Shown piece after piece: positions 1,046 to 21,270 of a DNA stretch of 64,000 nucleotides (position 1 is the stretch's first letter; every line of letters starts with the position of its first letter). The notes beneath the pieces are model-generated. The model saw only the letters and a list, made by a program, of their open reading frames with translations. It did no database searches and had not been told where the DNA came from. The position numbers were made by a program, and so were the translations under genes. The stretch is from Candidatus Thalassarchaeaceae archaeon (GTDB lineage: Archaea > Thermoplasmatota > Poseidoniia > Poseidoniales > Thalassarchaeaceae). The DNA lies in the NCBI GenBank assembly GCA_029940695.1, contig JAPYUP010000001.1, forward strand, positions 75,385-139,384, given 5' to 3'.

Positions 1046-2095
1046 TCAAGCCCAAGCAACGCTTGTGTAGTCGGTTCTTAGGGAGGGATTGATGGCACTG
1101 TCCTCGATTCGCGTTGATATTCCGCACTGGTGCATTCGCCTTCCCAACTCTGCAATCATAGTCCCATTATCGACGCAGTAGGCCTTGTCTGGCCAGTGCG
1201 CGCTAGCCCCCCTCTCAATGCACATTCTCTGAGCCATCTCCCTCAATCTCCCATTGCAGGCAACACCACCACCAAGTAGCAGTTCGGTTTTCCCCGTGTG
1301 CGCCAAAGCCCTCTCTGCAACTTCCACGCAAGTAGCGAATGCATGCTCTTGCAGTGACCAACATATGACTTGCAGGGGGGAATCTTCACGAACCCTCTGC
1401 ACAGCAGAGGTCAGTATTCCTGAGAAGGCTATGTCCATCCCGTGGACGCCGTAAGGCAACTGAACCTCATCGAGGCTTGGTGGGCCGTCTCGTAAGCAAG
1501 CATCAGCTAGTCTCTCGATCTCCGGGCCCCCCGGGAATGGAATTCCGTGAACCCTTGCAAACTTGTCTAGCATGTTGCCGATTCCGATGTCGAGGGTTTC
1601 CCCTAGTACCCTGTAGCGGCCATTAGCACGGGCAATCACTTGGGTGTTCCCACCACTTACATAGAGCAATACGGGATCAACACAACCAGTCTGATTGCGC
1701 CCCACTTCGATATGCGCAACACAATGATTGACGCCAATTAGCGGCACATCGAGGCTTCTTGATAGAGATCTGGCAACCGAGGCACCAATTCGCAGACACG
1801 GCCCGAGTCCCGGACCCTGGCTAAAGGCTACAGCATTCACTGAACTCCAGTCGAAGCCTTCACTGGAACCGATATTGGTCAGCAAAGTGGAGGCGGCCTC
1901 AGAATGGTGATCGGCTGCTTCCCTAGGATGAATTCCGCCCTTTTCAGGATGGAATACAGCCGAATACGACGGATAGAGAGTCCCATTCAAACCAACGCTA
2001 CCCACAGACAAGGTATGCGCAGTGCTCTCTATCCCCAGTACAAGACCATTCACAGAAAGTCGTGAAGCACGAGTCCTTTCAAGTATCGCAGCCAT
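1046..2095 (-). CDS. kae1: Kae1 (OSGEP/TsaD family), the tRNA N6-adenosine threonylcarbamoyltransferase catalytic subunit of KEOPS
   Basis: 349 aa. Kae1/TsaD hallmarks: GIESTAHTLSVG, HCVAHIE, metal-binding His pair, and a C-terminal GGGVACNGRLR-like segment. Confidence 0.85.
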   Translation of the reverse strand: MAAILERTRASRLSVNGLVLGIESTAHTLSVGSVGLNGTLYPSYSAVFHPEKGGIHPREAADHHSEAASTLLTNIGSSEGFDWSSVNAVAFSQGPGLGPCLRIGASVARSLSRSLDVPLIGVNHCVAHIEVGRNQTGCVDPVLLYVSGGNTQVIARANGRYRVLGETLDIGIGNMLDKFARVHGIPFPGGPEIERLADACLRDGPPSLDEVQLPYGVHGMDIAFSGILTSAVQRVREDSPLQVICWSLQEHAFATCVEVAERALAHTGKTELLLGGGVACNGRLREMAQRMCIERGASAHWPDKAYCVDNGTMIAELGRRMHQCGISTRIEDSAINPSLRTDYTSVAWA

Positions 2096-2103
2096 CCGGG
2101 TGC

Positions 2104-3396
2104 ATGAGAACGCTAATCGTAAATTGCGGTGAAGTCGCTCATCTATCCACTGGTGACATCCGATTTCCTCTGTCTGGCTATCAGATTAAGGATAGAAATC
2201 ACCTCGTCCACTCAGAAGGAATGGCCATCCTCGTCGAAGATGGTATAATTGAGCGCATTGGCCCGACGTCAGATTTGATCGCTGAGCACGCTCCTTGGTT
2301 CCCTTCCACGACAAAATCAGTAGATACCACAGTCATAGACGTACACGGAAAGGCCGTTGTTCCCGGTTTTGTGGACTGTCACACCCACTTGGTTTGGGCC
2401 GGTGACAGGGCCGAAGAGTTGGCACTCAGGCAGGCCGGCAAAACCTACAGGGACATAGCGGCAGCCGGGGGCGGAATCAGCAAAACAGTCATTCATACCC
2501 GGGGCGCTTCCCTCGAGAACCTCGTAGAATCTGGAAATCGGAGGATTGTGGCTGCAATCGCAAACGGTACTACAGCGATTGAGGCCAAGAGCGGTTACGG
2601 ACTCGATGTTGAAGCTGAAGTCAAACTCCTAGAGGCGATTTCCATGATTGATAGGTCGACGGCTTGCAGCATTTCTCCCACTTGGCTTGGTGCGCATGAT
2701 TTCCCCGCCGACACAAGCCGGCGAGACTACATGGACCAACTAATATCGGACCAATTGCCAATTATCTCTGAACTCGGGCTAGCAAAATGGGTCGACGTTT
2801 TTTGTGAGCCTGGCTGGTTTTCACCGGAGGAAACCGCGGAAATCGTCAGGTCTGCCGGGGAACATGGAATCGGATCGAGGCTGCATGTTGACGAGTTCGT
2901 TGACTACGGGGGCCTCGCTCTAGCAGCAGAACTAGGATCTGTTAGTGGGGATCACGTTGCATGCTCCAGTGATGATTCACGACAAAGTGCTGCAGATGCA
3001 GGCACGATGCAGACATTCCTACCAGGAACCCCCTATGTGCTTGGCACCGATATTGCTCTGCCAATAAACAAATGCATCGAAGAGGACTGGGCCTTCTCAA
3101 CGGCTACTGACTTCAATCCAAATTGTCCTATCAACTCACTTCCTTTCATTGGTAGCCTGCTCTCCCATAGGCTAGGCATCGATCCTATCGCCGCTCTGGT
3201 TTCTGTAACTAGGAATCCCGCCACCACACTATTCGACGAATCGGAAATGAGGGGGGTGCTAGCAAAAGGCAGACCGGCCGATCTTAACGTGCTTTGGTCG
3301 TCATCCGCCGATAGTTGGTGCCAGACCCCTGGAAGCTCTCCTGTTAGCATGACCCTGATTGGAGGAGAAGTTGTAAACTCGGACAAGGCGTACTGA
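2104..3396 (+). CDS. hutI: Imidazolonepropionase (HutI). The start is probably the internal Met (MRTLIV...), which avoids overlap with kae1.
   Basis: Amidohydrolase-superfamily motifs VDCHTHLVWAG and HVDE. Length about 430 aa. Located in the hut neighbourhood. Confidence 0.8.
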   Translation: MRTLIVNCGEVAHLSTGDIRFPLSGYQIKDRNHLVHSEGMAILVEDGIIERIGPTSDLIAEHAPWFPSTTKSVDTTVIDVHGKAVVPGFVDCHTHLVWAGDRAEELALRQAGKTYRDIAAAGGGISKTVIHTRGASLENLVESGNRRIVAAIANGTTAIEAKSGYGLDVEAEVKLLEAISMIDRSTACSISPTWLGAHDFPADTSRRDYMDQLISDQLPIISELGLAKWVDVFCEPGWFSPEETAEIVRSAGEHGIGSRLHVDEFVDYGGLALAAELGSVSGDHVACSSDDSRQSAADAGTMQTFLPGTPYVLGTDIALPINKCIEEDWAFSTATDFNPNCPINSLPFIGSLLSHRLGIDPIAALVSVTRNPATTLFDESEMRGVLAKGRPADLNVLWSSSADSWCQTPGSSPVSMTLIGGEVVNSDKAY

Positions 3397-3852
3397 TACT
3401 ACTATACTATTGAAATGCTATTAGAACGAAAATATCGATAAATCACTAGTACAGTCACCCCCACCGTTCTAGAATGGAAATATTTCGAGTCATATGTTGC
3501 CGATAACAGTAGTTATCAGAACAATATTTTGAATTATCCATGTTGAGTTGCTGGCAGTGTCCCGTTTTTGAAAAATATCCAATAATTATGCCTTCGCACC
3601 CCCACTATTAGTGAAATATTGAAACCGGGTATAGTAATCACGAATCGTGACTTCGGAAGTACATGGTTTCTGCATGAAGTGCAAAACCTATGTTTTGATT
3701 AGTAATCCTATGGAAGTACCGATGCGAAACGGTAGAACCAGAATAGCTGGAACTTGCTCGATCCAAGGCTGCACTGGCAGGATTTCAAAGATTGTTTCCT
3801 AACCAACTCTTGGAGAATGATTCTTGAGTGGGTGTGAATACGCAATATGGCC
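3397..3852. other. A 456-bp AT-rich non-coding spacer between hutI and tRNA-Val. It contains two short palindromes: GATAACagtaGTTATC at 3502-3517 and TCACGAaTCGTGA at 3638-3650.
   Basis: No ORF of 60 aa or longer. AT content is clearly above the window average. The palindromes were read directly from the sequence. Confidence 0.5.
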
Positions 3853-3928
3853 GGGCTCGTGGTCTAGGGGTTATGACGTCGCCTTGACATGGCGAAGATC
3901 GCAGGTTCAATTCCTGCCGAGCCCACCA
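3853..3928 (+). tRNA. tRNA-Val, anticodon GAC, with the CCA end encoded
   Basis: Manual fold. Acceptor stem GGGCUCG/CGAGCCC (7 bp). Anticodon stem UCGCC/GGCGA with loop UUGACAU. T-arm GCAGG-UUCAAUU-CCUGC. U8, A14 and G18G19 are present, with discriminator A. Length 76 nt. Confidence 0.75.
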
Positions 3929-3945
3929 ATAGTATTGATACTATG

Positions 3946-4707
3946 TTAATCGCTATTCAATGAATATGAGACTCTCAGTCTCCCTTTGCCCTTGTTCCTC
4001 ACTCCTTTGAAGGTCACCGGGTGAATCTCCCTAGTGTTGACGACATGAGTGCCTGCACATGGGCAGAGGTCAACTCCATCAACTTCGATGACCCTGAGAT
4101 GGGTGACTGAAGGTGGGATTCTATCAATGAATTTCATGTGTCGCATGTCTTTATGATTCGTGATTGTGTCCCTGTCCCACTCGTGAACGTTCACTGGAAT
4201 TGCCGAATCGATGACTGAGTTTACTGCATCGATAAGAACGCCGGGGTCGAAGACGGTCTTATCCTCGAATAGTAAATCCACCCTAGACTGTTCCATACCT
4301 ATCTGGTTTCCAACTGTTTCTGCGCCCCATATGTCTTCGGCTAAAGCTGAGAAGATGTGCTGAGACGTATGCATCAGTGCGTGAGCGTTTCTCCTCTCTG
4401 GGTCAATTGAGCATACGATAGGCTCACCGACATTGAATATAGACGAATCTTCGACGGGGTGATCTATCAATTCTCCCGGTAGTACCTCGAAGAAAGGGGC
4501 GGTTCTGCCATCACTGTGAGAAATATAGCCAGTATCACCTGGTTGGCCCCCTCCACGAGGATAACAGTGGGACTCAGAGAGAAACAAGGATGATTCTGAA
4601 GTGCCCATTACATGTGCTTCGAAGGAAGGTGGATTAGTGCCTGGGTGGCGAAGCATATGCAGCATCTCTTGCACTGTCTCACCCGAATAATCGACCAATC
4701 GCACCAT
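3946..4707 (-). CDS. alaX: AlaX-M-type alanyl-tRNA editing protein (a trans-editing AlaRS-editing-domain homolog). It may instead start at an internal Met, MLHMLRHPG, at about 4662.
   Basis: EGGGQPGDTGYI-like beta-barrel motif (PRGGGQPGDTGYI), then the Zn-binding HxxxH (HTSQH) and CxxxH (CAGTH) motifs of AlaRS editing domains. About 250 aa. Confidence 0.65.
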   Translation of the reverse strand: MVRLVDYSGETVQEMLHMLRHPGTNPPSFEAHVMGTSESSLFLSESHCYPRGGGQPGDTGYISHSDGRTAPFFEVLPGELIDHPVEDSSIFNVGEPIVCSIDPERRNAHALMHTSQHIFSALAEDIWGAETVGNQIGMEQSRVDLLFEDKTVFDPGVLIDAVNSVIDSAIPVNVHEWDRDTITNHKDMRHMKFIDRIPPSVTHLRVIEVDGVDLCPCAGTHVVNTREIHPVTFKGVRNKGKGRLRVSYSLNSD

Positions 4708-6229
4708 TCATTATGGAACTGGAGAGAGCTTCGCACTCGGCAGTTAGGGATCTGTCACTATCCAGAGGAGAGACGTGTTTCCTGACCCATTCGTGGAGTT
4801 TTTCGACCCCATTACCTGGTTCCTCCTCTATCCTGTCGAGTGCCTCGCAGGAGCAAATCAATTCGTTTGCAATCACCTGGGAGAGATAACGCGTCGTTGT
4901 AGTTGCCCTGAATGTTCCAGTAGCCCCCATAGACGCATGATCCTCTTTCCCCATGCTAACGGGCACGTTACTAGAAGTAGCTGGGTTCGCAAGCAAGTGT
5001 AATTCAGATATGAGGGAGGCTGCGACGTATTGGATTAGCATCAAACCGCTCTCTAATCCCTCTTCATTGGCCAGGAATGGTTTCTGTCCACTCCATTTAG
5101 GATCGAGAAGCTGGTTGATTCTGCGTTCAGAAAGCGATGCGAGTTCGTGACAGGCTAGAGCGATGGCATCGCTCGCCAAAGCAAGGTTCTGTCCATGAAA
5201 GTTACCACCACTGATGATTTCGTATCCGTTGTCTTCCACGAAGATGAGGGGGTTATCCGTCGCGCTGTTGATTTCCACCTCCAGCATCCTCCTTACTTCC
5301 CTCGTTAAGTCAATGACTGGTCCATGAACCTGGGGCGAGCACCTGAAGCAGTAGGCATCCTGTACCCGATTACAATCAGCATGAGAGAGCATTATCTTAG
5401 AATCAGCGAGCATCCCAGAAATTCTAGCAGCAGAGATGGACTGCCCGAATTGTGGCCTGGCGGAATGAATTCTTGGGTCAAATGGCGCATGGGAACCCCT
5501 GATTCCTTCTAGGGAGCATGCGACAGCGCAATCGGCTGCTAAGAGGAGGTTTTCGAGATCCGTGAGTGCTATTGCCATGTATGCGCACATTTGGCTAGTT
5601 CCGTTTATCAGCGACAAGCCCTCCTTTGCTTGCAATTTGATGGGCGAAAGTCCAGCACTACTTAGGGCATCACTGCTTTGCATGACATTCCAAGAGTTCT
5701 CATCGCAGATTGTACAGTCACCTTCACCAATCAATGACAGAGCCATGTGCGAAAGCGGGGCGAGATCTCCCGATGCCCCCAGAGAGCCAATGCGCGGGAC
5801 TACGGGGGCGATTCTGGCGTTCACCATTGATAGCAGCAGATCAACTACCTCCGGCCGGGCACCAGAGAAACCCTTCGCAAGGGAATTTGCCCGGATAATC
5901 ATCATCATCAGAACATGTTCCGGGTCCATTCTTTCTCCGACGCCACAAGCGTGGCTCCTGATTAGGTTGACTTGGAGGTCTTCCAGATGTCCGAGTTCAA
6001 TCCTAACTGAAGACAAGGCGCCGAACCCAGTATTGATTCCATAGACCACATCATCAGAGTCTAGGACTTGCTCTATGGCGGATCTTGATTTCGCCATGGC
6101 CTCCCTAGACGATTCAGAGAGTGAGGCTGTGTGTTGACCATAGGCGATGGCTAATACGTCCTCAGGACGGAGGGATTCCCCGTCTATGTGAAACTCGCCC
6201 ATGCGTCGCGACCGAGGTGACGGGGTCAC
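4679..6229 (-). CDS. hutH: Histidine ammonia-lyase (HutH)
   Basis: 516 aa. MIO-forming Ala-Ser-Gly triad within GSLGASGDLAPLSHMAL. Aromatic amino-acid lyase family. Sits between hutU and alaX. Confidence 0.85.
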   Translation of the reverse strand: MTPSPRSRRMGEFHIDGESLRPEDVLAIAYGQHTASLSESSREAMAKSRSAIEQVLDSDDVVYGINTGFGALSSVRIELGHLEDLQVNLIRSHACGVGERMDPEHVLMMMIIRANSLAKGFSGARPEVVDLLLSMVNARIAPVVPRIGSLGASGDLAPLSHMALSLIGEGDCTICDENSWNVMQSSDALSSAGLSPIKLQAKEGLSLINGTSQMCAYMAIALTDLENLLLAADCAVACSLEGIRGSHAPFDPRIHSARPQFGQSISAARISGMLADSKIMLSHADCNRVQDAYCFRCSPQVHGPVIDLTREVRRMLEVEINSATDNPLIFVEDNGYEIISGGNFHGQNLALASDAIALACHELASLSERRINQLLDPKWSGQKPFLANEEGLESGLMLIQYVAASLISELHLLANPATSSNVPVSMGKEDHASMGATGTFRATTTTRYLSQVIANELICSCEALDRIEEEPGNGVEKLHEWVRKHVSPLDSDRSLTAECEALSSSIMNGAIGRLFG

Positions 6230-6235
6230 ATAGAG

Positions 6236-8251
6236 TCATCGAGAGTGCTTGAAGACGCCCTCGAGCAGATTTGGCTCAACCATGTTTGGCATGGTCACCT
6301 CCAACTTGGCGTTGGCCCCCATTGCCCTAGAGATTGCGAACTCAGCACCCTCACTCCTAGCCCATGAACGCCGTGCTAATCCATTGTTTACATCCCATGA
6401 TATCATTGAGTCTATCCTGCTCTGAGAGTCTTGAGAGCCATCTAGCACCAATCCGAATCCCCCATTGATCACTTCGCCCCAACCAACGCCCCCACCATTG
6501 TGCAAGCTCACCCACGTGGCCCCCCTGAATGAGTCTCCAACGAAGTTCTGAACAGACATGTCAGCTGTGAACATAGAACCGTCTTGGATGTTGGATGTCT
6601 CTCTGAATGGGCTGTCAGTCCCCCCAACATCGTGATGATCACGGCCAAGGACTATTGGCGCTGAGATCACTCCTTCGGAGATTGCGTCGTTGAATGCCCT
6701 AGCTATACTGCGCCTGCCATTCTCATCTGCGTATAGAATCCTTGCCTTGCTTCCCACGACCAAACCCTGGCGTTCAGCCTCTGATATCCATCTGATGTTA
6801 TCGAGGTATTGAATCCTGATTTCGTCGGCGCAGTTTCTGGACAGGTTCTCCAGAACCTCTTGGGCGATTCTATCAGTTTCCATAAGATCAGATACAGCAC
6901 CTGAGCAACAAACCCACCTGAAGGGACCGAACCCATAGTCGAAGCACATGGGGCCCATGATGTCCTCAACGTATGAGGGATATCTGAAACGTCCATCCCC
7001 CAGAATAACATCCGCACCCGCTCTGCCTGCCTCTAGAAGAAAGGCGTTGCCGTAGTCCCAAAATCTGGTTCCTTTGGAGTTTAGAACATTAATTGCATTA
7101 ACTTGCCTTCTAAGGGACTCTTGCACTCTTTCCTTGAAGGCCGCTGGGTCATTCTTCAGAAGTTCTAGGCTCTCACCAAGGGATATCCCAGCGGGAATGT
7201 AACCGCCTAGCCATGGGTTATGCAGGCTTGTCTGGTCGCTTGCAAGATCTGGGTACAGACCAACGTCAATGAGGTGCTCCAGAAGATCTACGATGTTTCC
7301 CAAATATCCCAGGGAAACGGCCTCATTGTTGGCTCTGGCTTCAATTGCCCTCTCGACAACTACATCAAGGTCGTCGTACAACTCTGAGAGCCAGCCTTGC
7401 TCAAGCCTCTTATTGGCTGGTTTGGGATCAATTTCCGCAATAAGGCACACTGCTCCAGCTATTACTGCAGCTTTGGCCTGTGCTCCCGACATACCACCTA
7501 AGCCTGAGGTCACGTAAATCACTCCGCCCAGGCCTTCTTCTGAGGTCCTTCCAAGGTACTTCCGCGCGGCATTCAGGAGTGTAATTGTCGTCCCGTGGAC
7601 GATGCCTTGGGGGCCTATGTACATGTAGGAGCCAGCAGTCATCTGACCGTACTGTGAAACCCCAAGGGCATTCATGCGCTCGTAGTTCTCTTGTGAGGAA
7701 TAGTTGGGAACCACCATGCCGTTGGTTACCACTGCCATCGGCGCATCGGCGCTAGATGGGAACAACCCGAGTGGGTGACCTGAATACATTACCAGAGTCT
7801 GATCTTCGTCCATTTTACCAAGGTACTGCATAGTTAGACGGTATTGGGCCCAATTCTGGAATACTGCGCCGTTCGCACCATAAGTGACCAATTCGTGTGG
7901 GAACTGGGCGACTACTGGATCCAGGTTGTTCTGAATCATCAACATTATCGCTGCGGCAAATGGTGATTTCGCAGGGTAATCCGAGATTGGTCTGGCGTGC
8001 ATTTCGTACTCTGGTCTGAACCTGTGCATGTAGATGTGACCATAATTGTCCAACTCGGCCAGAAACTCAACGGCGAGAATTGGATGCCACGTCGAAGGGA
8101 AGTACCGCAGAGCGTTCTCGACGGCAAGCCTCCTCTCTGCATCAGACAGGACCGGGGGCCTGCTTGGTGCATGGGATACCGAGGTATCTAGGAGTCTTGG
8201 GGGAGGAAGTTGTTCGGGTATGCCCTCTCGAACTTCTTCGCTAAACGCCAT
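6236..8251 (-). CDS. hutU: Urocanate hydratase (HutU), long form of 671 aa with an N-terminal extension
   Basis: GLGGMSGAQ NAD-binding motif and a conserved urocanase core. Its start overlaps the stop of the upstream cyclodeaminase gene (ATGA coupling). Confidence 0.85.
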   Translation of the reverse strand: MAFSEEVREGIPEQLPPPRLLDTSVSHAPSRPPVLSDAERRLAVENALRYFPSTWHPILAVEFLAELDNYGHIYMHRFRPEYEMHARPISDYPAKSPFAAAIMLMIQNNLDPVVAQFPHELVTYGANGAVFQNWAQYRLTMQYLGKMDEDQTLVMYSGHPLGLFPSSADAPMAVVTNGMVVPNYSSQENYERMNALGVSQYGQMTAGSYMYIGPQGIVHGTTITLLNAARKYLGRTSEEGLGGVIYVTSGLGGMSGAQAKAAVIAGAVCLIAEIDPKPANKRLEQGWLSELYDDLDVVVERAIEARANNEAVSLGYLGNIVDLLEHLIDVGLYPDLASDQTSLHNPWLGGYIPAGISLGESLELLKNDPAAFKERVQESLRRQVNAINVLNSKGTRFWDYGNAFLLEAGRAGADVILGDGRFRYPSYVEDIMGPMCFDYGFGPFRWVCCSGAVSDLMETDRIAQEVLENLSRNCADEIRIQYLDNIRWISEAERQGLVVGSKARILYADENGRRSIARAFNDAISEGVISAPIVLGRDHHDVGGTDSPFRETSNIQDGSMFTADMSVQNFVGDSFRGATWVSLHNGGGVGWGEVINGGFGLVLDGSQDSQSRIDSMISWDVNNGLARRSWARSEGAEFAISRAMGANAKLEVTMPNMVEPNLLEGVFKHSR

Positions 8252-8871
8252 TACCAGCCCAACCTCTCCGAAACAATGGAACGAATCACCCCGACTAATT
8301 CATTTGACGTCGCTAGTAACTTTTCTATTCGGGCTGCCTCTTTCTCTACATCTTCACCTTCAATAGAATCTAGATTGATTCGTACATTCATAGATGCGAT
8401 GTAGGCTGCAGTATTCGCAAGCTCTGCCGAAGCGGCAAGATCGGTCAAAGCGTTCGAGTTGCCGTGTTCAGCCAATTTTTGTATCGAAACGAGGAGTTCG
8501 CAAGCCTCAATTGCAGTCTCCAACGGGACCGCCGCGGCCCCCCACGTAGCATTGCGAATCTCCCCTTTTCTAGCAGATACCTCTGCTTCGTCACCTTTGG
8601 GAAGTCTGTAGGCACGCATGACTGCGTCAAAGGCCTCTGCATCCTTCTCTGCGAGGACAATTGCCCTATCGGAACCTGATTCAGATGAAATTATCACGGC
8701 GTCAGCGGCGTCGACTCCATCGACTGATATCTTCCTGCCTTTGGACAATCGCGCTACCATAAGAGCGAGAGAATGTGCATGAGCTAACGCAAGAGCAGCT
8801 ACTGAACCCCCCCCAGGGGTTGGAGAAGATGATGAAATTCGACTCAGAATTTCCTTGTATCCCTCATTCAC
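8251..8871 (-). CDS. Formimidoyltetrahydrofolate cyclodeaminase (stand-alone FTCD C-domain homolog)
   Basis: 206 aa. SPTPGGGSVAALALA motif typical of the cyclodeaminase/FTCD_C family. Translationally coupled to hutU. Confidence 0.7.
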   Translation of the reverse strand: MNEGYKEILSRISSSSPTPGGGSVAALALAHAHSLALMVARLSKGRKISVDGVDAADAVIISSESGSDRAIVLAEKDAEAFDAVMRAYRLPKGDEAEVSARKGEIRNATWGAAAVPLETAIEACELLVSIQKLAEHGNSNALTDLAASAELANTAAYIASMNVRINLDSIEGEDVEKEAARIEKLLATSNELVGVIRSIVSERLGW

Positions 8872-8872
8872 A

Positions 8873-9913
8873 CTAATTCCTCATACTTTCTATGGCCCAC
8901 TCAATTATGTTTGATTTGGGATTGAATTCTCCCAATACGTCCAGCATGAGTCCCGAAATGGCTGCGTGGACCAATGACTGCTCATCTGCTATTGAGGGTT
9001 CATCGTGGTAGTTCCTGCCAGCAGCCAGCATCGCCTCAAGTGGGACTAGGCCCACCAACTCCCCAGCAACTGCATTGAGATCAATTTGGCTGGCTTCCTC
9101 CCTGATTGCATCTGTCACTGTATGCAGGCCAGTTACCTTGTAGTCCAACAGGTTCATCGAGACTTGCGCGGTGTCTTCGTTGTACATCCACCCTGCAGCC
9201 TGCAATGACTGGAACCTACCGGGCTGCCTGAGCGGATTTCCGCTAGGACCAAGCACCTTCTCGCCGTTCTCATCCCTCAATAATGACCCACTGGTCCTTA
9301 TTTTGGCCGCTATTGAGTTGGCCTTGGCCTTTTCAGTGGTGTCAAGATTGACGTTGTATGCTATCAGAATCTGTCGTGCCCCAGTTGCTGTAGCTCCCAT
9401 TTTTGGCTTGAACTCGGCCGGGCCGTAGTCAGGAGTCCAATCCATTGAGGATATTTTCGACGCTAGGCCTTCGTACCCGCCCCGCCTTATGTCGGGAAGC
9501 CTAACCCTCTGTTCGTTTCTAGCAGCCTCAGCATAGAGGTAAACAGGCAAGTCTAACCGGTCAGAAACAGCCTCTGCATAACGTTCCGCTAGTTCTACGC
9601 ACTCCGCCATTGTGGTTCTCTGGATTGGAATGAACGGAACGACATCGACAGCACCCATACGTGCGTGCTCGCCATGGTGCTCGCTCATGTCAATGAGATT
9701 GAGTGCGACTTCAGTGGATATAATGGCAGCGTCGAGAACAGATTCCGGATAACCAACCATTGTCATGACAGTTCTATTGAAGTCGTAACCCATATCGACA
9801 TCAAGCAACGTCACCCCTTCCACGCCACGTATAGCCTCGGAGATCTCCTCGATAACCGAACTGTTTCGTCCCTCGCTGAAGTTCGGGACGCACTCGATCA
9901 AAGCGGACGACAT
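8873..9913 (-). CDS. Glutamate formimidoyltransferase (stand-alone FTCD N-domain homolog). Proposed to convert formiminoglutamate to glutamate plus 5-formimino-THF.
   Basis: ECVPNFSEGR N-terminal signature of formiminotransferase. 346 aa. Immediately upstream of the cyclodeaminase gene. Confidence 0.8.
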   Translation of the reverse strand: MSSALIECVPNFSEGRNSSVIEEISEAIRGVEGVTLLDVDMGYDFNRTVMTMVGYPESVLDAAIISTEVALNLIDMSEHHGEHARMGAVDVVPFIPIQRTTMAECVELAERYAEAVSDRLDLPVYLYAEAARNEQRVRLPDIRRGGYEGLASKISSMDWTPDYGPAEFKPKMGATATGARQILIAYNVNLDTTEKAKANSIAAKIRTSGSLLRDENGEKVLGPSGNPLRQPGRFQSLQAAGWMYNEDTAQVSMNLLDYKVTGLHTVTDAIREEASQIDLNAVAGELVGLVPLEAMLAAGRNYHDEPSIADEQSLVHAAISGLMLDVLGEFNPKSNIIEWAIESMRN

Positions 9914-9950
9914 GCTTCCTGCACAGGATGGGGCATGATGAGGATTCTGC

Positions 9951-11195
9951 TTACCCGTAGAGGCCGTCAGGACCCATAGAGGAACCCTGACGGCGCTTCC
10001 TTGCGATTTTATTGATTGCAGCTACTAAGTCAGATTTAGTGACCGAATCCCTTCCGTCGGAAATTGCTGAGATGCCTGCTTCGATAGTGGTGGATTTGAT
10101 TTCAGCGCCGCTGAAACCATCTGCCATTATTGCGAGCTTGCGCAAATCAACGTCCTCAAAAAGCGGCATGGATCTTGAGTGAACTTGGAATATGGTATTG
10201 CGGGCATTGATATCGGGCATGGGGATTTCGATAATCCTGTCGAATCTGCCCGGTCTTAGAAGAGCTACGTCTAGTAGTTCAGGGCGGTTGGTAGCGGCTA
10301 TCACCTTGACGTTGTTCAACGATTCAAAACCATCCATCTCGGAGAGCAATTGCATGAGTGTCCTCTGTACTTCTCGGTCTCCTGAAGTGGCTGTGTCTAG
10401 GCGTCTCGATCCAATGGAGTCGAGCTCGTCGATGAATATGATAGAGGGTGCCTTCTCGCGCGCGAGGTCGAAGAGCTCCCTGACCATCCTGCCTCCTTCC
10501 CCTATGTACTTCTGAGCCAACTCAGCGCCGACCAAACCTAGGAAGGTGGCCTTGGTAGCGTTCGCCACGGCCTTTGCCAGCATGGTTTTTCCAGTGCCTG
10601 GGGGGCCAGTTAGCAAGACTCCTTTGGGGGGGTCGATACCGAACTCCTCGAAGGCCCCCGGATTCTCAAATGGAAGTTCTATTGCCTCGCGTAGCTCTTG
10701 TATCTGTGCGTCCAACCCACCGATTGAGCTGTATTCCACAGATGTGCTGTCGATAACCTCAGTGCCACTGACCAAGGGATCCCATGAATCTGATAAAATA
10801 TCGATTACAGAGAGAGTGTCTTGATTCAGCGCCACCCTAGTTCCCGGTTTGAGGTCTTTGAATTCCAGCCTCTTGTTTACCGAGACTAGGAATACCGTGC
10901 CGTTAGAGCTCCTGACTACGGCTTGGTCGTCAATCAGGTCTTGGACGTAACCGATGACGAGTGGGGGTGACTTGATATTTCGTAGTTCCTCGTCTAGTCT
11001 GTTGGCGCGCCTTTTCAATTGAGCATACTCATTCTCCAAGAACAGTTTCTCTGTGAGAAGCTGCTGGGCCTTCTTCGACAGTTCATCGAAATTCCCCCTT
11101 AAACGAGAAAGAGAAGCATCTTGGTCGGAGACAACCGATTTGAAAGATTCCGATTTTCTGGTTGCGTCCTCTGCCTCGCTTGCCATGAGCAGCAC
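9951..11195 (-). CDS. pan: Proteasome-activating nucleotidase PAN (AAA+ ATPase)
   Basis: N-terminal coiled coil and OB region. Walker A GPPGTGKT. AAA second region of homology. C-terminal HbYX-like ...GLYG end. Confidence 0.85.
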   Translation of the reverse strand: MLLMASEAEDATRKSESFKSVVSDQDASLSRLRGNFDELSKKAQQLLTEKLFLENEYAQLKRRANRLDEELRNIKSPPLVIGYVQDLIDDQAVVRSSNGTVFLVSVNKRLEFKDLKPGTRVALNQDTLSVIDILSDSWDPLVSGTEVIDSTSVEYSSIGGLDAQIQELREAIELPFENPGAFEEFGIDPPKGVLLTGPPGTGKTMLAKAVANATKATFLGLVGAELAQKYIGEGGRMVRELFDLAREKAPSIIFIDELDSIGSRRLDTATSGDREVQRTLMQLLSEMDGFESLNNVKVIAATNRPELLDVALLRPGRFDRIIEIPMPDINARNTIFQVHSRSMPLFEDVDLRKLAIMADGFSGAEIKSTTIEAGISAISDGRDSVTKSDLVAAINKIARKRRQGSSMGPDGLYG

Positions 11196-11256
11196 TCCGA
11201 ACCGGCACTTATGACATCTGCGAAGGAATCATGTTCACCTCCAGTGTGGGGACACC

Positions 11257-11823
11257 ATGGGGACATGCGAACTCTGTGGCTTCGAAGGAGTATCCACACG
11301 GAGAGCCTCAGTTTCACAGACTACCCTAGAATGCTGCAATAAGTGCATAGATTCCATGGGACTGTCTGTGGAGCGTCAGATTCTAACAGTAATGCCATCA
11401 AACTCGCCTTCCAACCAAGTTACTGGTAGGGGGCTGGCAGGCGTGGACATCATGACCAAGGACTCAAAGGAACTAGCCGACGACTTCCATACTAAAATCA
11501 GAGCCGCACGGGAAGCAAGGGGCTGGTCACAGAGTGACCTTGCCCGCAGAATCAACGAAAGGGCAAACGCAGTCCAGAAGGCGGAAAATGGAATTATGCC
11601 GACCGACTCGGTGATTCGCAAAATTGGTAAAATATTGAATCTGAAATTATTCATAGACTCGATGCCCAAGAACACTAGGATGACGACGTCAGATGAATCG
11701 AGAGAGATGACAATCTCGGACGCCAAAGACATTCCGCAGGAGGGAGAACGAAGCAGGAAAGGCAAGAAGAAGGGCAGGAAACTTGGCGTCTCGAGGTCGG
11801 GTGCCCGATCTAGGAGACAGTGA
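11257..11823 (+). CDS. mbf1: Archaeal MBF1-like transcription factor: N-terminal Zn ribbon, C-terminal HTH-XRE, and a basic tail
   Basis: The N-terminus carries CxxC...CxxC (CELCG...CNKC). The HTH is REARGWSQSDLARRINERANAVQKAENG. Confidence 0.6.
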   Translation: MGTCELCGFEGVSTRRASVSQTTLECCNKCIDSMGLSVERQILTVMPSNSPSNQVTGRGLAGVDIMTKDSKELADDFHTKIRAAREARGWSQSDLARRINERANAVQKAENGIMPTDSVIRKIGKILNLKLFIDSMPKNTRMTTSDESREMTISDAKDIPQEGERSRKGKKKGRKLGVSRSGARSRRQ

Positions 11824-11826
11824 TAC

Positions 11827-12372
11827 GTGAGCGAAGTTCCCCTCCATGTGATTCACCTCGATCAAGACGACCCTAGAAAGTGCACTGCTCGGAGACTCGG
11901 GTCGCATGGCCTAGCATTATTACATTACGATGTTCGCAAAGCCCCTAGGAGGGGTTTTTTGTTGGACCCCAATGCAACAGTGATCCTAGGCCCTGAAGAC
12001 AAGGGGATGATAGAATTGGGTGGGGCCTTGGTTGCTTTGGACTGCTCATGGAAGAAGATTGAGGAGTCACTAGTAAGTGTAGAACTGCAGACGATGTTGG
12101 AATCACGAACCCTACCCATACTACTAGCGTCAAATCCCGTGTCTTGGGGCAAGCCAGGCCGCCTTTCCACCGCCGAGGCCCTAGCAGCGTCTCTGTATTT
12201 GATTGGGTACAAGGAGCAAGCCTTTCGTTTGTTGAGTCCATTTCCATTCGGCGACCAGTTTATGGAACTGAACAAAGAGCCTCTGAACGCATACATCGAA
12301 GCGCGAAGTCGCAAAGAACTGACTGAGCTTCAGTGGGAGTTCTTCGATTCGGGTCGTTCAGCGGACTACTGA
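11827..12372 (+). CDS. tsr3: Tsr3 (DUF367), 16S rRNA aminocarboxypropyltransferase
   Basis: The DDPRKCTARRL motif matches the Tsr3 D-x-K-K-C-T-A signature. 181 aa. Located 4 bp after mbf1. Confidence 0.65.
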   Translation: MSEVPLHVIHLDQDDPRKCTARRLGSHGLALLHYDVRKAPRRGFLLDPNATVILGPEDKGMIELGGALVALDCSWKKIEESLVSVELQTMLESRTLPILLASNPVSWGKPGRLSTAEALAASLYLIGYKEQAFRLLSPFPFGDQFMELNKEPLNAYIEARSRKELTELQWEFFDSGRSADY

Positions 12373-18936: not shown

Positions 18937-19989
18937 TTGTCCATTACGATTGCCTCAGCGAAAGTTAGGGCCCGTCCAGTGATAGCGCAAACCGGTCCGA
19001 GTTGTCCTGATGCGGTTGACAACTTGCTTGGGTCAGGCATGGCATTGCCTGCTACGCTTGATTTTTCATCCTTGCGAACCAAGTGTCCCCATGCAAACCC
19101 ATTTCAACTCAATGGCCGGCGAGGAACCGTGTCAGTTGAACCACTGCTAGTTAGAATAGGACATTCACCAGACCCTGATGACGCATTCATGTTCTTCGGA
19201 TTAACTTCAGGCGTGATAGAAACCCCAGGACGTGTGTACGAGCATTCCCTTGTCGACATAGACACCCTGAATATAGAGGCCCGAAAGAGCACCTACGAGG
19301 TCTCCGCAGTTAGCATTCGCTCGTTCCCAGATATCTCAGAGGAATACGCCCTGATGAACTGCGGTGCCTCTATGGGCGAGGGATACGGTCCGATGGTCAT
19401 CTCCAATATGCCAATGAGTGAGGAAGAGGCTAGCGAGAAGACAATTGCAATTCCTGGTTTCAGCACCAGTGCCTTCCTCACGCTGAGACTGGCATTAGGA
19501 GAGGTTAGTGTGGTCGAAGTTCCCTTCGACGAAATTCTCCCTGGTGTAATCCTTGGGAAGTACGACGTCGGTGTAATCATCCATGAAGGTCAGCTGACAT
19601 GGAAGGGTGACGGCGTGCATCTTGTTCTGGATCTTGGTATGTGGTGGAATCAAACAACGGGGCTGCCTTTACCACTTGGGGGGAACGTCGTCAGGAAGGA
19701 CCTAGGTGAAATAGTTTGCAGAGAAATCACAAGGGACGTCAGAGCGAGTATCAGACATGCACTGGATAACCCAGAGAAGGCTCTTGAGTTCGCACGTCAA
19801 TGGGGGAGGGGGATCGATGAGAGCACCAACGAAAAGTTCGTATCGATGTATGTGAACGAGCGTACAGTCGATTATGGACCAGAAGGCCGTGAGGCAATCA
19901 GGCTATTCTTGAAGAAAGGACAGGAAATCGGGCTTGTTAGGGGGGACATGGATGTGCGGGACATTCAATTCGTAGGGCATGATGATTAG
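18937..19989 (+). CDS. mqnD: MqnA/MqnD-family (VitK2 biosynthesis, PBP-like fold) protein, probably 1,4-dihydroxy-6-naphthoate synthase MqnD
   Basis: GHSPDPDDAFMFFGL N-terminal block and a periplasmic-binding-protein-like profile. Paralog of the mqnA ORF in the same cluster. The A/D assignment is tentative. Confidence 0.55.
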   Translation: MSITIASAKVRARPVIAQTGPSCPDAVDNLLGSGMALPATLDFSSLRTKCPHANPFQLNGRRGTVSVEPLLVRIGHSPDPDDAFMFFGLTSGVIETPGRVYEHSLVDIDTLNIEARKSTYEVSAVSIRSFPDISEEYALMNCGASMGEGYGPMVISNMPMSEEEASEKTIAIPGFSTSAFLTLRLALGEVSVVEVPFDEILPGVILGKYDVGVIIHEGQLTWKGDGVHLVLDLGMWWNQTTGLPLPLGGNVVRKDLGEIVCREITRDVRASIRHALDNPEKALEFARQWGRGIDESTNEKFVSMYVNERTVDYGPEGREAIRLFLKKGQEIGLVRGDMDVRDIQFVGHDD

Positions 19990-20437
19990 TATGGAAAGCG
20001 AACAACCAGACACTAGTGAGTTCGGCTCAGTCGACCCTGCCCCCCCTAGTGAGTCGGTTAGTATTGGTTCCTTGAGGGAAACCCTATGCAATGAAGAAGA
20101 GCGAATGTTCCTCAGGATGAGGGCTCTTTTTGCTTTGAGGAACATCGGTGAAATTGAGGCCATCAACTCTCTGGCGGCTGCGTTCAATTCCGCCTCTGCC
20201 CTGCTCAAGCACGAAATCGCCTACGTCATGGGTCAGATGCAAGATGGCCATGCAGTGCACCACCTGGTAGAGAGGCTGGAGGACGAGAACGAGGACGTAA
20301 TGGTCAGGCATGAGGCAGCAGAAGCCCTAGGCGCGATAGGGGACACTACGGCCTTGGCAACACTGGAGAGGTTCAGGTGCGATCCTGAGATAGTTGTAGC
20401 AGAATCCTGCGAGGTTGCCATCGACCTCCTCGAGTGA
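19979..20437 (+). CDS. Half-size deoxyhypusine hydroxylase (DOHH)-like HEAT-repeat protein: four HEAT repeats carrying two His-Glu metal motifs
   Basis: LLKHEIAYVMGQMQD and VMVRHEAAEALGAIGD reproduce the two HE motifs of one DOHH dyad. Flanking segments (RALFALRNIG..., DPEIVVAESCEVAIDLLE) align to eukaryotic DOHH halves as I remember them. 152 aa. Confidence 0.6.
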   Translation: MMISMESEQPDTSEFGSVDPAPPSESVSIGSLRETLCNEEERMFLRMRALFALRNIGEIEAINSLAAAFNSASALLKHEIAYVMGQMQDGHAVHHLVERLEDENEDVMVRHEAAEALGAIGDTTALATLERFRCDPEIVVAESCEVAIDLLE

Positions 20438-20465
20438 ATATCAGGCGAACGCTTTGATTACCCGG

Positions 20466-21263: not shown

Positions 21264-21270
21264 GAATCCA

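What the first reader, a model, noticed from the sequence alone, without database searches (positions are those of the whole stretch)
3946..11195. Archaeal hut cluster using a split formiminotransferase/cyclodeaminase route, co-transcribed with alaX and PAN
hutH, hutU and hutI are accompanied by separate genes for the formimidoyltransferase and cyclodeaminase halves of FTCD, not by hutG or hutF. This implies a THF-dependent breakdown of formiminoglutamate. The genes are tightly packed on one strand, with 1-6 bp gaps or ATGA overlaps. The run is flanked by the proteasomal ATPase PAN at its 5' end and an AlaX-M trans-editing protein at its 3' end. HutU is the long ~670-aa form. Hut operons are uncommon in archaea.
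Basis: partly seen in the sequence, partly recalled or inferred. Interest (0 to 1): 0.5.

Follow-up and report, generated by a model that had tools for sequence, protein, structure and literature searches.

The report
Folate-dependent histidine breakdown genes, marine archaeon
This is an ordinary, correctly recognisable gene set for breaking histidine down to glutamate with a folate cofactor, in a Marine Group II archaeon; published tables already list most of these genes as core genes of that group.

Summary
The window comes from a Marine Group II (Poseidoniales, Thalassarchaeaceae) metagenome-assembled genome. The minus strand carries PAN, glutamate formimidoyltransferase (FT), an FTCD_C cyclodeaminase-type protein (CD), long-form HutU, HutH and an AlaX-type editing protein.

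All four Hut enzymes score above curated family cut-offs and keep the hallmark residues I checked. hutI is real. But it lies outside the stated interval, on the opposite strand, beyond tRNA-Val and an uncalled 51-aa DUF5679 ORF.

The junctions are tight but not as described:
- PAN/FT: 37 nt
- FT/CD: 1 nt
- CD/HutU: TAATG overlap
- HutU/HutH: 6 or 33 nt
- HutH/AlaX: -29 to +22 nt

The whole 20-kb neighbourhood is collinear in about 25 related genomes. Adjacency to PAN and AlaX is therefore shared synteny, not evidence of a functional link.

In a related genome's published metatranscriptome table, FT has coverage in four samples where PAN has none. The PAN-FT spacer also holds a conserved motif. 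Both argue against obligate co-transcription with PAN.

Tully 2019 already lists hutH, hutU, FTCD, folD, folC and folP as MGII core functions. The folate-dependent pathway reading is supported, the extended-operon reading is not, and novelty is low.

The parts
9951..11195 (-). Proteasome-activating nucleotidase (PAN). The likely start is ATG 11186 (411 aa); the C-terminus ends in an HbYX-type LYG. It is a neighbour of the Hut pathway, not a part of it.
   Evidence: NF003069 517 bits against a cut-off of 500; AAA, OB and lid domains. Gene callers give 411 aa. The C-terminal ...LYG stop was read.
9914..9950 (-). PAN-FT spacer of 37 nt. It carries the conserved motif AATCCTCATCA at 9936-9946, which is -33 to -23 from the FT ATG. 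Candidate promoter or regulatory site for the hut genes.
   Evidence: Spacer length is 35-46 nt, mostly 36-38, in about 25 loci. The motif is conserved across loci with 57-100% FT identity. It is not enriched window-wide and no conserved fold was found.
8873..9913 (-). Glutamate formimidoyltransferase (FT), 346 aa: N-formimino-L-glutamate + THF -> L-glutamate + 5-formimino-THF.
   Evidence: PF07837 plus PF02971; TIGR02024 340.5 bits against a cut-off of 221. 298 bits to the pig FTCD FT domain 1QD1, with the GEH (His82) motif conserved and a 16-residue insertion.
8251..8871 (-). FTCD_C-family protein (CD), 206 aa with a GTG start. Inferred formimino-THF cyclodeaminase: 5-formimino-THF -> 5,10-methenyl-THF + NH3.
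   Evidence: PF04961 154.6 bits. PDB hits are nearly equal: FchA cyclohydrolase 7VG4 79.5 bits, TM1560 cyclodeaminase 1O5H 75.5 bits, rat FTCD 72 bits. NCBIfam FchA scores 108 bits against a cut-off of 275. The function is assigned from context.
6236..8251 (-). Urocanate hydratase HutU, long form, 671 aa. Its ATG overlaps the CD stop codon (TAATG).
   Evidence: Three urocanase domains; TIGR01228 417 bits against a cut-off of 375. 855 bits to T. cruzi 6UEK from residue 8. 66% identical to an Acidobacteriota cluster representative. Junction read.
4679..6229 (-). Histidine ammonia-lyase HutH. The ORF runs from GTG 6229; the likely start is ATG 6202 (507 aa).
   Evidence: TIGR01225 586.5 bits against a cut-off of 539. 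The GSLGASGDLAPL MIO motif is present and the homologue alignment begins at residue 14. Gene callers give 507 aa.
3946..4707 (-). AlaX-type (M-size) tRNA(Ala) trans-editing protein. The start is uncertain (ATG 4707, 4665 or 4656). It is a neighbour of the Hut pathway, not a part of it.
   Evidence: tRNA_SAD domain. NF040865 scores 163 bits, below its cut-off of 300. HTSQH and CAGTH zinc motifs are present; the alignment shown is to 3KEW, and P. horikoshii AlaX-M 2E1B is a weaker hit at 45.5 bits.
3853..3928 (+). tRNA-Val(GAC), 18 nt beyond the AlaX stop codon, on the opposite strand.
   Evidence: ARAGORN and Rfam RF00005 at 67.9 bits. Found at the same place in 16 of 18 related loci; in the other two the tRNA is cut by masked N runs.
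3647..3802 (+). Conserved 51-aa zinc-ribbon ORF (DUF5679). Gene callers did not call it. It lies between hutI and tRNA-Val.
   Evidence: ORF list. tblastn gives 53-76% identity in the 16 related (non-identical) loci that hold this stretch, with the CxxC...CxxxxC pattern kept. PF18930 28.3 bits against a cut-off of 27. No gene is called there in L001.
2062..3396 (+). Imidazolonepropionase HutI. The ORF runs from GTG 2062; the likely start is ATG 2104 (430 aa). It converges on the minus-strand run. Its start lies 8 nt from the divergent Kae1 start.
   Evidence: TIGR01224 326.9 bits against a cut-off of 298. 206 bits to B. subtilis HutI 2BB0, with the DCHTH metal motif. Gene callers give 430 aa.

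Best explanation
The locus encodes the complete, known folate-dependent histidine-utilisation pathway of a Marine Group II archaeon.

The steps are:
1. HutH deaminates histidine to urocanate.
2. Long-form HutU hydrates urocanate to imidazolone propionate.
3. HutI opens the ring to N-formimino-L-glutamate.
4. The stand-alone formimidoyltransferase (FT) passes the formimino group to tetrahydrofolate and releases glutamate.
5. The stand-alone FTCD_C protein (CD) cyclises 5-formimino-THF to 5,10-methenyl-THF plus ammonia. FolD elsewhere in the genome can then use the methenyl-THF.

FT, CD, HutU and probably HutH form one translationally coupled unit. It probably has its own start signal in or near the conserved 37-nt spacer after PAN. 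hutI is expressed separately from the opposite strand.

PAN, AlaX, tRNA-Val and the DUF5679 ORF are unrelated housekeeping neighbours. They sit here because this is a compact genome with strongly conserved gene order.

Shown here: gene identities, hallmark residues, junctions and synteny. Shown in published tables: transcription of these genes in a related genome. Inferred: the enzyme activities, the cyclodeaminase assignment, THF as the carrier, and the transcription units.
For: - All four Hut enzymes exceed NCBIfam equivalog cut-offs.
- The hallmark residues checked are kept: FT His82 equivalent, HutH Ala-Ser-Gly MIO motif, HutI HxH, and full-length long-form HutU homology to 6UEK.
- FT/CD are 1 nt apart and CD/HutU overlap by 1 nt.
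- These tight junctions (-10 to +4 nt in most loci) and the gene order recur in about 25 MGII species, down to 57% FT identity.
- GC content is the same as in the flanks, so this is an old resident and not a recent island.
- Tully 2019 Supplementary Data 10 lists hutH, hutU, FTCD, folD, folC and folP as MGII core functions, defined as present in at least 70% of both MGIIa and MGIIb genomes.
- Damashek 2021 Table S3 shows the same arrangement in MGIIb genome SIMO Bin 19-2: psmR->FT, and hutU->hutH->AARSD1<-hutI. folD is present, and all these genes have non-zero transcript coverage. FT exceeds PAN in five samples, and PAN is zero in four of them.
- The PAN-FT spacer is conserved in length and carries a conserved motif.
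Against: - No enzyme assay exists for any MGII Hut protein.
- CD cannot be told apart by sequence from a methenyl-THF cyclohydrolase: 79.5 bits to FchA against 75.5 and 72 bits to cyclodeaminases.
- The spacer motif is not TATA-like in the canonical sense and is not enriched elsewhere in the window.
- Many orthologous spacers carry a Shine-Dalgarno-like purine run at -12 to -5. This would only be used on a leadered or read-through mRNA, so read-through from PAN is not excluded.
- The transcript coverage values are very low and come from another genus.
- Absence of hutG/hutF was checked only in this 64-kb window and by string search in partly truncated published tables.
Confidence: 0.8

Rival explanations
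1. One reading: PAN, FT, CD, HutU, HutH and AlaX form one six-gene operon. Histidine catabolism would then be co-expressed with the proteasome ATPase and tRNA(Ala) editing.
For: All six genes are on one strand with short junctions. The order is conserved in about 25 species. Shine-Dalgarno-like purine runs precede the FT start in many orthologous spacers, consistent with internal initiation on a longer mRNA. HutH/AlaX leave no intergenic room (-29 to +22 nt).
Against: Conservation is not specific. The flanking CNNM, MetRS, Tsr3, aMBF1, HutI, Kae1 and orf270 genes, on both strands, are equally collinear. The PAN-FT spacer is conserved in length and carries a conserved motif. In SIMO Bin 19-2, FT has transcript coverage in four samples where PAN is zero. 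No biochemical link between these functions is known.
Confidence: 0.15
2. FT (with CD) serves mainly folate housekeeping and not histidine catabolism. It would remove 5-formyl-THF by formyl transfer to glutamate, replacing 5-formyl-THF cycloligase.
For: [quoted passage not shown] It also reports that several prokaryotic COG3643 genes complement an E. coli ygfA mutant.
Against: The same source treats this as moonlighting by Hut-pathway FTs, not as an alternative to the Hut role. Here FT-CD is coupled to HutU/HutH by a 1-nt gap and a 1-nt overlap in every related genome. TIGR02024 is passed with a wide margin.
Confidence: 0.1
3. The FTCD_C protein is a methenyl-THF cyclohydrolase (FchA-like, EC 3.5.4.9) and not a formimino-THF cyclodeaminase.
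For: Its best solved relative is Methylobacterium-type FchA 7VG4 (79.5 bits), marginally ahead of the cyclodeaminases (75.5 and 72 bits). The only NCBIfam hit is FchA.
Against: The FchA hit is far below its cut-off (108 against 275 bits). The score differences among the PDB hits are trivial. A cyclohydrolase would leave 5-formimino-THF without an enzyme to process it, and FolD already supplies cyclohydrolase activity in MGII. The gene is always wedged between FT and HutU.
Confidence: 0.1
4. The one-carbon acceptor is an archaeal pterin such as tetrahydromethanopterin, not tetrahydrofolate.
For: Many archaea use methanopterin-type carriers (general knowledge; not tested here).
Against: folC, folP and folD are listed as MGII core functions. 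FT scores 298 bits against the mammalian THF-dependent FT domain.
Confidence: 0.03

Closest known systems
Bacterial formiminotransferase-type Hut pathway (COG3643 route; one of three known routes from N-formiminoglutamate to glutamate, as summarised in PMC3223725)
   Same: HutH, HutU and HutI plus a stand-alone glutamate formimidoyltransferase and a stand-alone FTCD_C protein. THF is the acceptor. Related Bacteroidales loci L036-L038 show hutI-FT(-CD) adjacency, with 43-44% FT identity.
   Different: The host is an archaeon. hutI is on the opposite strand, behind three unrelated genes. No hut regulator or transporter lies in the cluster. HutU is the long form. The cluster is embedded in an informational-gene block.
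Mammalian bifunctional FTCD (PDB 1QD1, 1TT9, 2PFD)
   Same: FT domain at 298 bits with the catalytic His82 motif conserved. CD domain at 72 bits. The same two consecutive reactions.
   Different: Two separate genes here, against one fused polypeptide in mammals. The archaeal FT has a 16-residue insertion (about residues 211-226) that pig and rat FT lack.
Long-form urocanate hydratase, e.g. Trypanosoma cruzi 6UEK (681 aa)
   Same: Collinear from residue 8 to 669 at 855 bits, including the roughly 85-residue N-terminal extension. The nearest 50%-identity cluster representative is a 680-aa Acidobacteriota protein at 66% identity.
   Different: None of note in architecture. Short bacterial forms (about 550 aa; 1X87, 1UWK) lack the extension and score 376 bits or less.
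The same genes as already tabulated for Marine Group II (Tully 2019 Supplementary Data 10, 'MGII Core'; Damashek 2021 Table S3, genome SIMO Bin 19-2)
   Same: hutH, hutU and FTCD are scored as core in MGIIa and MGIIb. SIMO Bin 19-2 shows the same order: psmR->FT, and hutU->hutH->AARSD1<-hutI.
   Different: Those papers list the genes only in supplementary tables. The main texts I searched contain no mention of histidine, urocanate or formimino.
HutG (formiminoglutamase) and HutF/N-formylglutamate amidohydrolase routes of histidine degradation
   Same: The first three steps (HutH, HutU, HutI) are identical.
   Different: The last step is hydrolytic and folate-independent. No such gene was found among the 55 larger ORFs of the window that were scanned.

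Membership tests
Glutamate formimidoyltransferase (TIGR02024, EC 2.1.2.5) | FTCD_N plus FTCD subdomains, and a score above the curated equivalog cut-off | tested here: met
   PF07837 234.5 bits and PF02971 131.7 bits. TIGR02024 scores 340.5 bits against a cut-off of 221.25.
Glutamate formimidoyltransferase (TIGR02024, EC 2.1.2.5) | Catalytic histidine (His82 of mammalian FTCD) in the HHGEH motif | tested here: met
   The query reads SEHHGEHARMGAVDV, aligned without gaps to pig SRHHGEHPRMGALDV.
Glutamate formimidoyltransferase (TIGR02024, EC 2.1.2.5) | Transfers the formimino group from N-formimino-L-glutamate to THF | not testable with these tools
   Needs an enzyme assay.
Formimino-THF cyclodeaminase (FTCD_C, EC 4.3.1.4) | PF04961 domain | tested here: met
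   154.6 bits against a cut-off of 24.5, covering residues 6-179.
Formimino-THF cyclodeaminase (FTCD_C, EC 4.3.1.4) | Can be distinguished from the homologous methenyl-THF cyclohydrolase FchA | tested here: inconclusive
   FchA 7VG4 79.5 bits, TM1560 75.5 bits, rat FTCD 72 bits. NF045657 scores 108 bits against a cut-off of 275. Only gene context favours cyclodeaminase.
Histidine ammonia-lyase (TIGR01225) | Score above the equivalog cut-off, and the Ala-Ser-Gly triad that forms the MIO prosthetic group | tested here: met
   586.5 bits against a cut-off of 539.15. GSLGASGDLAPL is present.
Urocanate hydratase (TIGR01228), long-form subfamily | Three urocanase domains above cut-off, plus the N-terminal extension shared with 6UEK | tested here: met
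   417.1 bits against a cut-off of 375. 6UEK aligns over residues 8-669 at 855 bits. The thiourocanate hydratase models score far below their cut-offs.
Imidazolonepropionase (TIGR01224) | Score above the equivalog cut-off, and the HxH metal-binding motif | tested here: met
   326.9 bits against a cut-off of 298.15. VDCHTHL aligns to VDPHTHL of 2BB0.
AlaX-M trans-editing protein (NF040865) | Score above the curated equivalog cut-off | tested here: not met
   163 bits against a cut-off of 300. It is an AlaX-family protein of M size, but not a certified AlaXM equivalog.
AlaX-M trans-editing protein (NF040865) | Editing-domain zinc motifs HxxxH and CxxxH, and the tRNA_SAD domain | tested here: met
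   HTSQH and CAGTH are present. PF07973 scores 33.4 bits against a cut-off of 24.
Proteasome-activating nucleotidase (NF003069 / TIGR01242) | Score above cut-off, OB plus AAA domains, and a C-terminal HbYX motif | tested here: met
   517.2 bits against a cut-off of 500. Prot_ATP_ID_OB_C and AAA domains are present. The protein ends in ...LYG; orthologues end in LYR, LYN, LYD and HYG.
Single operon PAN-FT-CD-HutU-HutH-AlaX | One transcript covers all six genes | not testable with these tools
   Only indirect data are available. These are a conserved 37-nt spacer with a motif, and published coverage with FT above PAN in a related genome.
Folate-dependent (FT-type) Hut route as the only route in this organism | HutG, HutF and N-formylglutamate amidohydrolase are absent from the genome | tested here: inconclusive
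   None were seen among the 55 larger ORFs of the 64-kb window that were scanned. No 'hutG', K01479, K05603 or K01458 strings occur in the stored parts of two published MGII tables. The rest of the genome was not searchable.

The most novel reading that the evidence does not exclude
The conserved AAyCCTCATCA element, at a fixed distance from the FT start in a length-conserved 37-nt spacer, is a lineage-specific regulatory site. It could be a promoter or operator that switches the hut genes independently of PAN, for example in response to histidine or nitrogen. The MGII hut module (long-form HutU 66% identical to an Acidobacteriota protein; FT closest to Bacteroidales outside MGII) would then be an ancient inter-domain acquisition, wired into a housekeeping gene block.
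Probability: 0.2. Interest if true: 0.35.

Novelty: already known. Interest (0 to 1): 0.15.

Why it matters
Marine Group II archaea are among the most abundant heterotrophs of the surface ocean and are thought to live on proteins and peptides. A complete histidine-to-glutamate route yields two ammonia molecules, one glutamate and one folate-bound C1 unit. That fits this lifestyle and adds detail to their nitrogen and one-carbon budget.

The pathway itself is textbook, though. Standard pipelines annotate the genes correctly, and a published pangenome table already lists hutH, hutU and FTCD as MGII core functions. The value of this check is mainly corrective. hutI lies elsewhere, the link to PAN and AlaX is synteny and not function, and the split FT/CD arrangement is what published accounts of the bacterial formiminotransferase-type Hut route describe.

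Tried and rejected
- **Bacterial-type promoter and terminator scan of 1900-11900.** It found fewer sites than the shuffled controls and does not apply to archaea.
- **Rfam scan of the whole window.** Only tRNA-Val was found.
- **Is the spacer motif a genome-wide promoter element?** No: 47 matches against 44 expected.
- **Does the spacer form a conserved hairpin that hides the FT ribosome-binding site?** Single-sequence folds have z-scores around 0 and no common structure. Rejected.
- **Is the reverse complement of the motif (TGATGAGG) the C box of a C/D-box sRNA?** The motif changes to CCTATTTC or CCTAATCT in other genera, and Rfam found nothing. Rejected.
- **Is a similar element upstream of hutI (CTTTCAAG at -27 to -20) a shared hut operator?** That stretch is the coding N-terminus of the divergent Kae1 gene (…ILE…), so coding constraint explains its conservation. 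Rejected as evidence.
- **Visual collection of TATA-like boxes upstream of first genes in the window.** It suggests elements such as CATAAATATC, CTTCATATATG and CCTATTTAC at -45 to -22. This was not formalised, so it counts as a hint only.
- **Literature searches for MGII with histidine, urocanate or histidine ammonia-lyase.** No main-text discussion was found. The information exists only in supplementary tables.
- **Jeanguenin 2010 (PMC3009883) is not held.** I used its summary in PMC3223725 instead.
- **The one genome-contig scan went to FT.** A genome-wide search for hutG/hutF in this assembly was therefore not possible.
- **No structure prediction was run.** Sequence matches to solved structures were already decisive.

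Full report
**Source and context**

The FT protein of the window occurs with exactly this sequence on 18 public contigs. One of them is NCBI assembly GCA_029936035.1, contig JAPOGK010000186.1. Its relatives at 57-92% identity are nearly all uncultured marine archaea. They are labelled Candidatus Thalassarchaeaceae, Thalassarchaeum, Poseidoniales or Marine Group II. The window is therefore from a Marine Group II (MGIIb) metagenome-assembled genome.

The rest of the window is housekeeping:
- MetRS, Tsr3, aMBF1, Kae1, primase, EF-2 and ribosomal protein S7;
- exosome subunits, proteasome alpha subunit and two further aminoacyl-tRNA synthetases;
- futalosine-type menaquinone genes, TrkAH and an Lhr-type helicase.

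GC content is flat at about 0.50-0.52 across the hut genes and their flanks.

**What is at 3946-11195**

On the minus strand, in order of transcription:
- PAN (9951-11195);
- glutamate formimidoyltransferase, FT (8873-9913);
- an FTCD_C-family protein, CD (8251-8871);
- urocanate hydratase, HutU (6236-8251, 671 aa);
- histidine ammonia-lyase, HutH (4679-6229);
- an AlaX-type editing protein (3946-4707).

FT, HutU and HutH exceed the curated NCBIfam equivalog cut-offs (340.5/221, 417/375 and 586.5/539 bits). PAN exceeds its subfamily cut-off (517/500 bits).

The AlaX protein scores 163 bits against the AlaXM model, below its cut-off of 300. It does have the tRNA_SAD domain and the HxxxH and CxxxH zinc motifs.

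The hallmark residues I checked are in place:
- FT has the SEHHGEH motif, with the equivalent of catalytic His82 of mammalian FTCD.
- HutH has the GASGD sequence that forms the MIO group.
- PAN ends in an HbYX-type LYG.

*hutI.* It is not in the interval and not on that strand. It is the plus-strand ORF 2062-3396 (likely start ATG 2104; TIGR01224 327 bits against a cut-off of 298; HxH motif present).

Three elements lie between its 3' end and the 3' end of the AlaX gene:
- a 250-nt gap;
- a conserved 51-aa DUF5679 zinc-ribbon ORF (3647-3802, plus strand) that the gene callers missed;
- tRNA-Val(GAC) at 3853-3928.

The five pathway genes therefore form two convergent groups, separated by three unrelated genes.

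*Junctions.* They are also different from the description:

| Junction | Spacing |
|---|---|
| PAN/FT | 37 nt |
| FT/CD | 1 nt |
| CD/HutU | 1-nt overlap, TAATG |
| HutU/HutH | 6 nt (GTG 6229), or 33 nt (ATG 6202, which gene callers and homologue alignment favour) |
| HutH/AlaX | -29 nt (ATG 4707), or +13/+22 nt (ATG 4665/4656) |

**Long HutU**

This is confirmed, and it is not unusual. The protein aligns from residue 8 to 669 with the 681-aa Trypanosoma cruzi enzyme 6UEK (855 bits). The roughly 550-aa bacterial enzymes align only from about residue 85-100, at 376 bits or less.

In a search of 1.8 billion cluster representatives, the best hit is a 680-aa protein at 66% identity. Its cluster members are labelled Acidobacteriota. 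Long eukaryotic forms also appear. The long form is thus a widespread, structurally solved subfamily.

**Comparative genomics**

A scan of one genome per GTDB species found 33 FT loci. Of these, 29 come from Marine Group II archaea and four from Bacteroidales, the latter at 43-44% identity.

In every MGII locus long enough to show it, the gene order is the same:

CNNM(-), MetRS, Tsr3(-), aMBF1(-), PAN, FT, CD, HutU, HutH, AlaX, HutI(-), Kae1, orf270

This holds down to 57% FT identity. The junctions are conserved too:
- PAN/FT: 35-46 nt, mostly 36-38;
- FT/CD: -8 to +1 nt;
- CD/HutU: -10 to +4 nt, or 34 nt in one subgroup;
- HutU/HutH: 4-36 nt.

Two conclusions follow. First, FT-CD-HutU(-HutH) is a stable, translationally coupled module. 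This is strong contextual evidence that FT and CD act in histidine degradation. Second, adjacency to PAN and AlaX is no more conserved than adjacency to any other gene of this 20-kb block, on either strand. It therefore says nothing about a functional or transcriptional link.

**Transcription units**

The PAN-FT spacer is the one junction in the run with room for a signal, and it looks constrained. Its length is nearly invariant. A motif, AAyCCTCATCA, lies 4-6 nt after the PAN stop codon, which is -33 to -23 from the FT ATG. It is recognisable across genera whose proteins are only about 60% identical.

The motif is not a general element of this genome: 47 matches against 44 expected. It is not part of a conserved RNA fold.

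Its position is where a TATA/BRE element would sit for a leaderless FT transcript. TATA-like boxes of loosely similar shape occur at -45 to -22 upstream of several first genes in the window. However, the motif is not AT-rich. Many orthologous spacers also carry a Shine-Dalgarno-like purine run at -12 to -5, which fits a leadered or read-through mRNA better. Sequence alone does not settle it.

Published data help a little. In Damashek 2021 Table S3 (PMC9723583), the MGIIb genome SIMO Bin 19-2 has psmR followed by glutamate formimidoyltransferase at a contig end. On another contig it has hutU, hutH and AARSD1 on one strand, with hutI on the other.

Coverage per million reads in the first five samples (FN66, FN71, FN82, FN86, FN91) is:
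- FT: 0.055, 0.143, 0.013, 0.066, 0.011;
- PAN: 0, 0.034, 0, 0, 0.

The hut genes are transcribed in situ at levels similar to many housekeeping genes of that genome. FT signal is present where PAN signal is absent. The numbers are small and from another genus, but they point away from obligate co-transcription.

**Folate dependence**

I scanned 55 of the larger ORFs of the window. None is an arginase-family HutG, a HutF-type deiminase or an N-formylglutamate amidohydrolase. The rest of the genome could not be searched.

Tully 2019 (PMC6336850) Supplementary Data 10, sheet 'MGII Core', lists these as core functions:

| Function | Fractions in the two clades | Genomes |
|---|---|---|
| hutH | 0.71 / 0.84 | 112 / 77 |
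| hutU | 0.75 / 0.85 | 118 / 78 |
| FTCD | 0.75 / 0.77 | 118 / 71 |
| folD | 0.79 / 0.91 | 125 / 84 |
| folC | 0.87 / 0.96 | 137 / 88 |
| folP | 0.90 / 0.86 | 142 / 79 |

Core is defined there as present in at least 70% of both MGIIa and MGIIb genomes. Neither 'hutG' nor 'hutI' occurs as a string in the held supplements. SIMO Bin 19-2 also has folD, and the stored part of its table has no K01479, K05603 or K01458.

MGII therefore makes and uses folates, and it has an enzyme (FolD) to take 5,10-methenyl-THF onward.

The one soft spot is the CD protein. By sequence it is equidistant from a characterised methenyl-THF cyclohydrolase (7VG4, 79.5 bits) and from cyclodeaminases (1O5H 75.5 bits; rat FTCD 72 bits). 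It falls far below the FchA cut-off. Its assignment as a cyclodeaminase rests on context.

**Moonlighting**

PMC3223725 summarises two results. Prokaryotes with the FT-type Hut route generally lack 5-formyl-THF cycloligase, and several prokaryotic FTs complement an E. coli ygfA mutant. The MGII FT may have this second role as well. That would add to the Hut function, not replace it.

**Comparison with what is known, and novelty**

This is the known FT-type ('folate-dependent') branch of histidine degradation, with FT and CD as separate genes. The fused FTCD is the mammalian form seen in the solved structures.

Every gene is named correctly by standard pipelines: NCBI names appear and Prokka/KEGG names. 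Two published supplementary tables already record the genes for MGII, and one scores them as core to the order.

I found no main-text discussion of MGII histidine catabolism in the held literature. The exact gene arrangement and the spacer motif appear not to have been described. These are small additions.

**Verdict**

- Observation: partly confirmed.
- Pathway interpretation: supported.
- Extended-operon interpretation: not supported.
- Kind of system: already known.
- Interest: low.

The most novel reading still open is that the conserved spacer element is a lineage-specific regulatory site for a hut module of bacterial origin. I give that about 0.2 probability and modest interest.

Noticed in passing
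window 3647-3802 (+): A 51-aa CxxC...CxxxxC zinc-ribbon ORF (Pfam DUF5679, 28.3 bits against a cut-off of 27) lies between hutI and tRNA-Val. It is conserved at 53-76% identity in the 16 related (non-identical) MGII loci that hold this stretch. It is absent from the gene calls of the NCBI, ENA and JGI records.
   Followed up: yes
window 9936-9946 (-), within the spacer 9914-9950: The motif AATCCTCATCA lies 4-6 nt after the PAN stop codon. It is conserved in sequence and position (-33 to -23 from the FT ATG) in about 25 MGII species, within a spacer of nearly constant length. It is not enriched elsewhere in the window and has no conserved fold. Its function is unknown; it may be a promoter or operator.
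   Followed up: partly
window 2095-2104: The divergent Kae1 (minus strand, ATG 2095) and HutI (plus strand, ATG 2104) start codons are only 8 nt apart. Each promoter must therefore lie inside the other gene's coding region. The conserved CTTTCAAG upstream of hutI is also Kae1 codons.
   Followed up: partly
window 3397-3945: The roughly 550-nt stretch between hutI and AlaX has 41% GC, against about 51% locally. Its length is conserved (555-611 nt) across related loci. Apart from the DUF5679 ORF and tRNA-Val, it includes a 250-nt AT-rich gap after hutI with nothing assigned to it.
   Followed up: partly
L015 and L023, between AlaX and HutI: The apparent 900-nt spacers with 21-27% GC are artefacts. 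Runs of 302 and 357 N (database masking) interrupt the tRNA-Val gene.
   Followed up: yes
L033 11558-13042: One related genome (isolate ARS80) has about 1.5 kb of extra sequence between CD and HutU. This breaks the otherwise universal coupling of the two genes. Its content was not examined.
   Followed up: no
FT protein residues about 211-226 (window about 9236-9283, minus strand): FT carries a 16-residue insertion (…LLRDENGEKVLGPSGN…) relative to pig and rat FTCD. The insertion is conserved enough in MGII to serve as a search pattern (RDENGEKV).
   Followed up: no
proteins P0122 (938 aa) and P0126 (1026 aa, chrysophyte): Some long-form urocanase homologues carry 300-440 extra N-terminal residues, which suggests fusion proteins. 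The extra regions were not examined.
   Followed up: no
window 18937-22584: Two VitK2_biosynth (MqnA/MqnD-like) genes and a CofH/MqnC-type radical-SAM gene, with a HEAT-repeat protein between them. This is a futalosine-type menaquinone cluster.
   Followed up: no
window 50679-55976 (-): A 1765-aa Lhr-type helicase (DEAD, DEAD_assoc and WH_Lhr domains) with an AlkZ-like DNA glycosylase domain at residues 1157-1325.
   Followed up: no
window 30990-32684 (+): A 564-aa protein that combines an N-terminal NUDIX domain with a polyprenyl synthetase domain.
   Followed up: no
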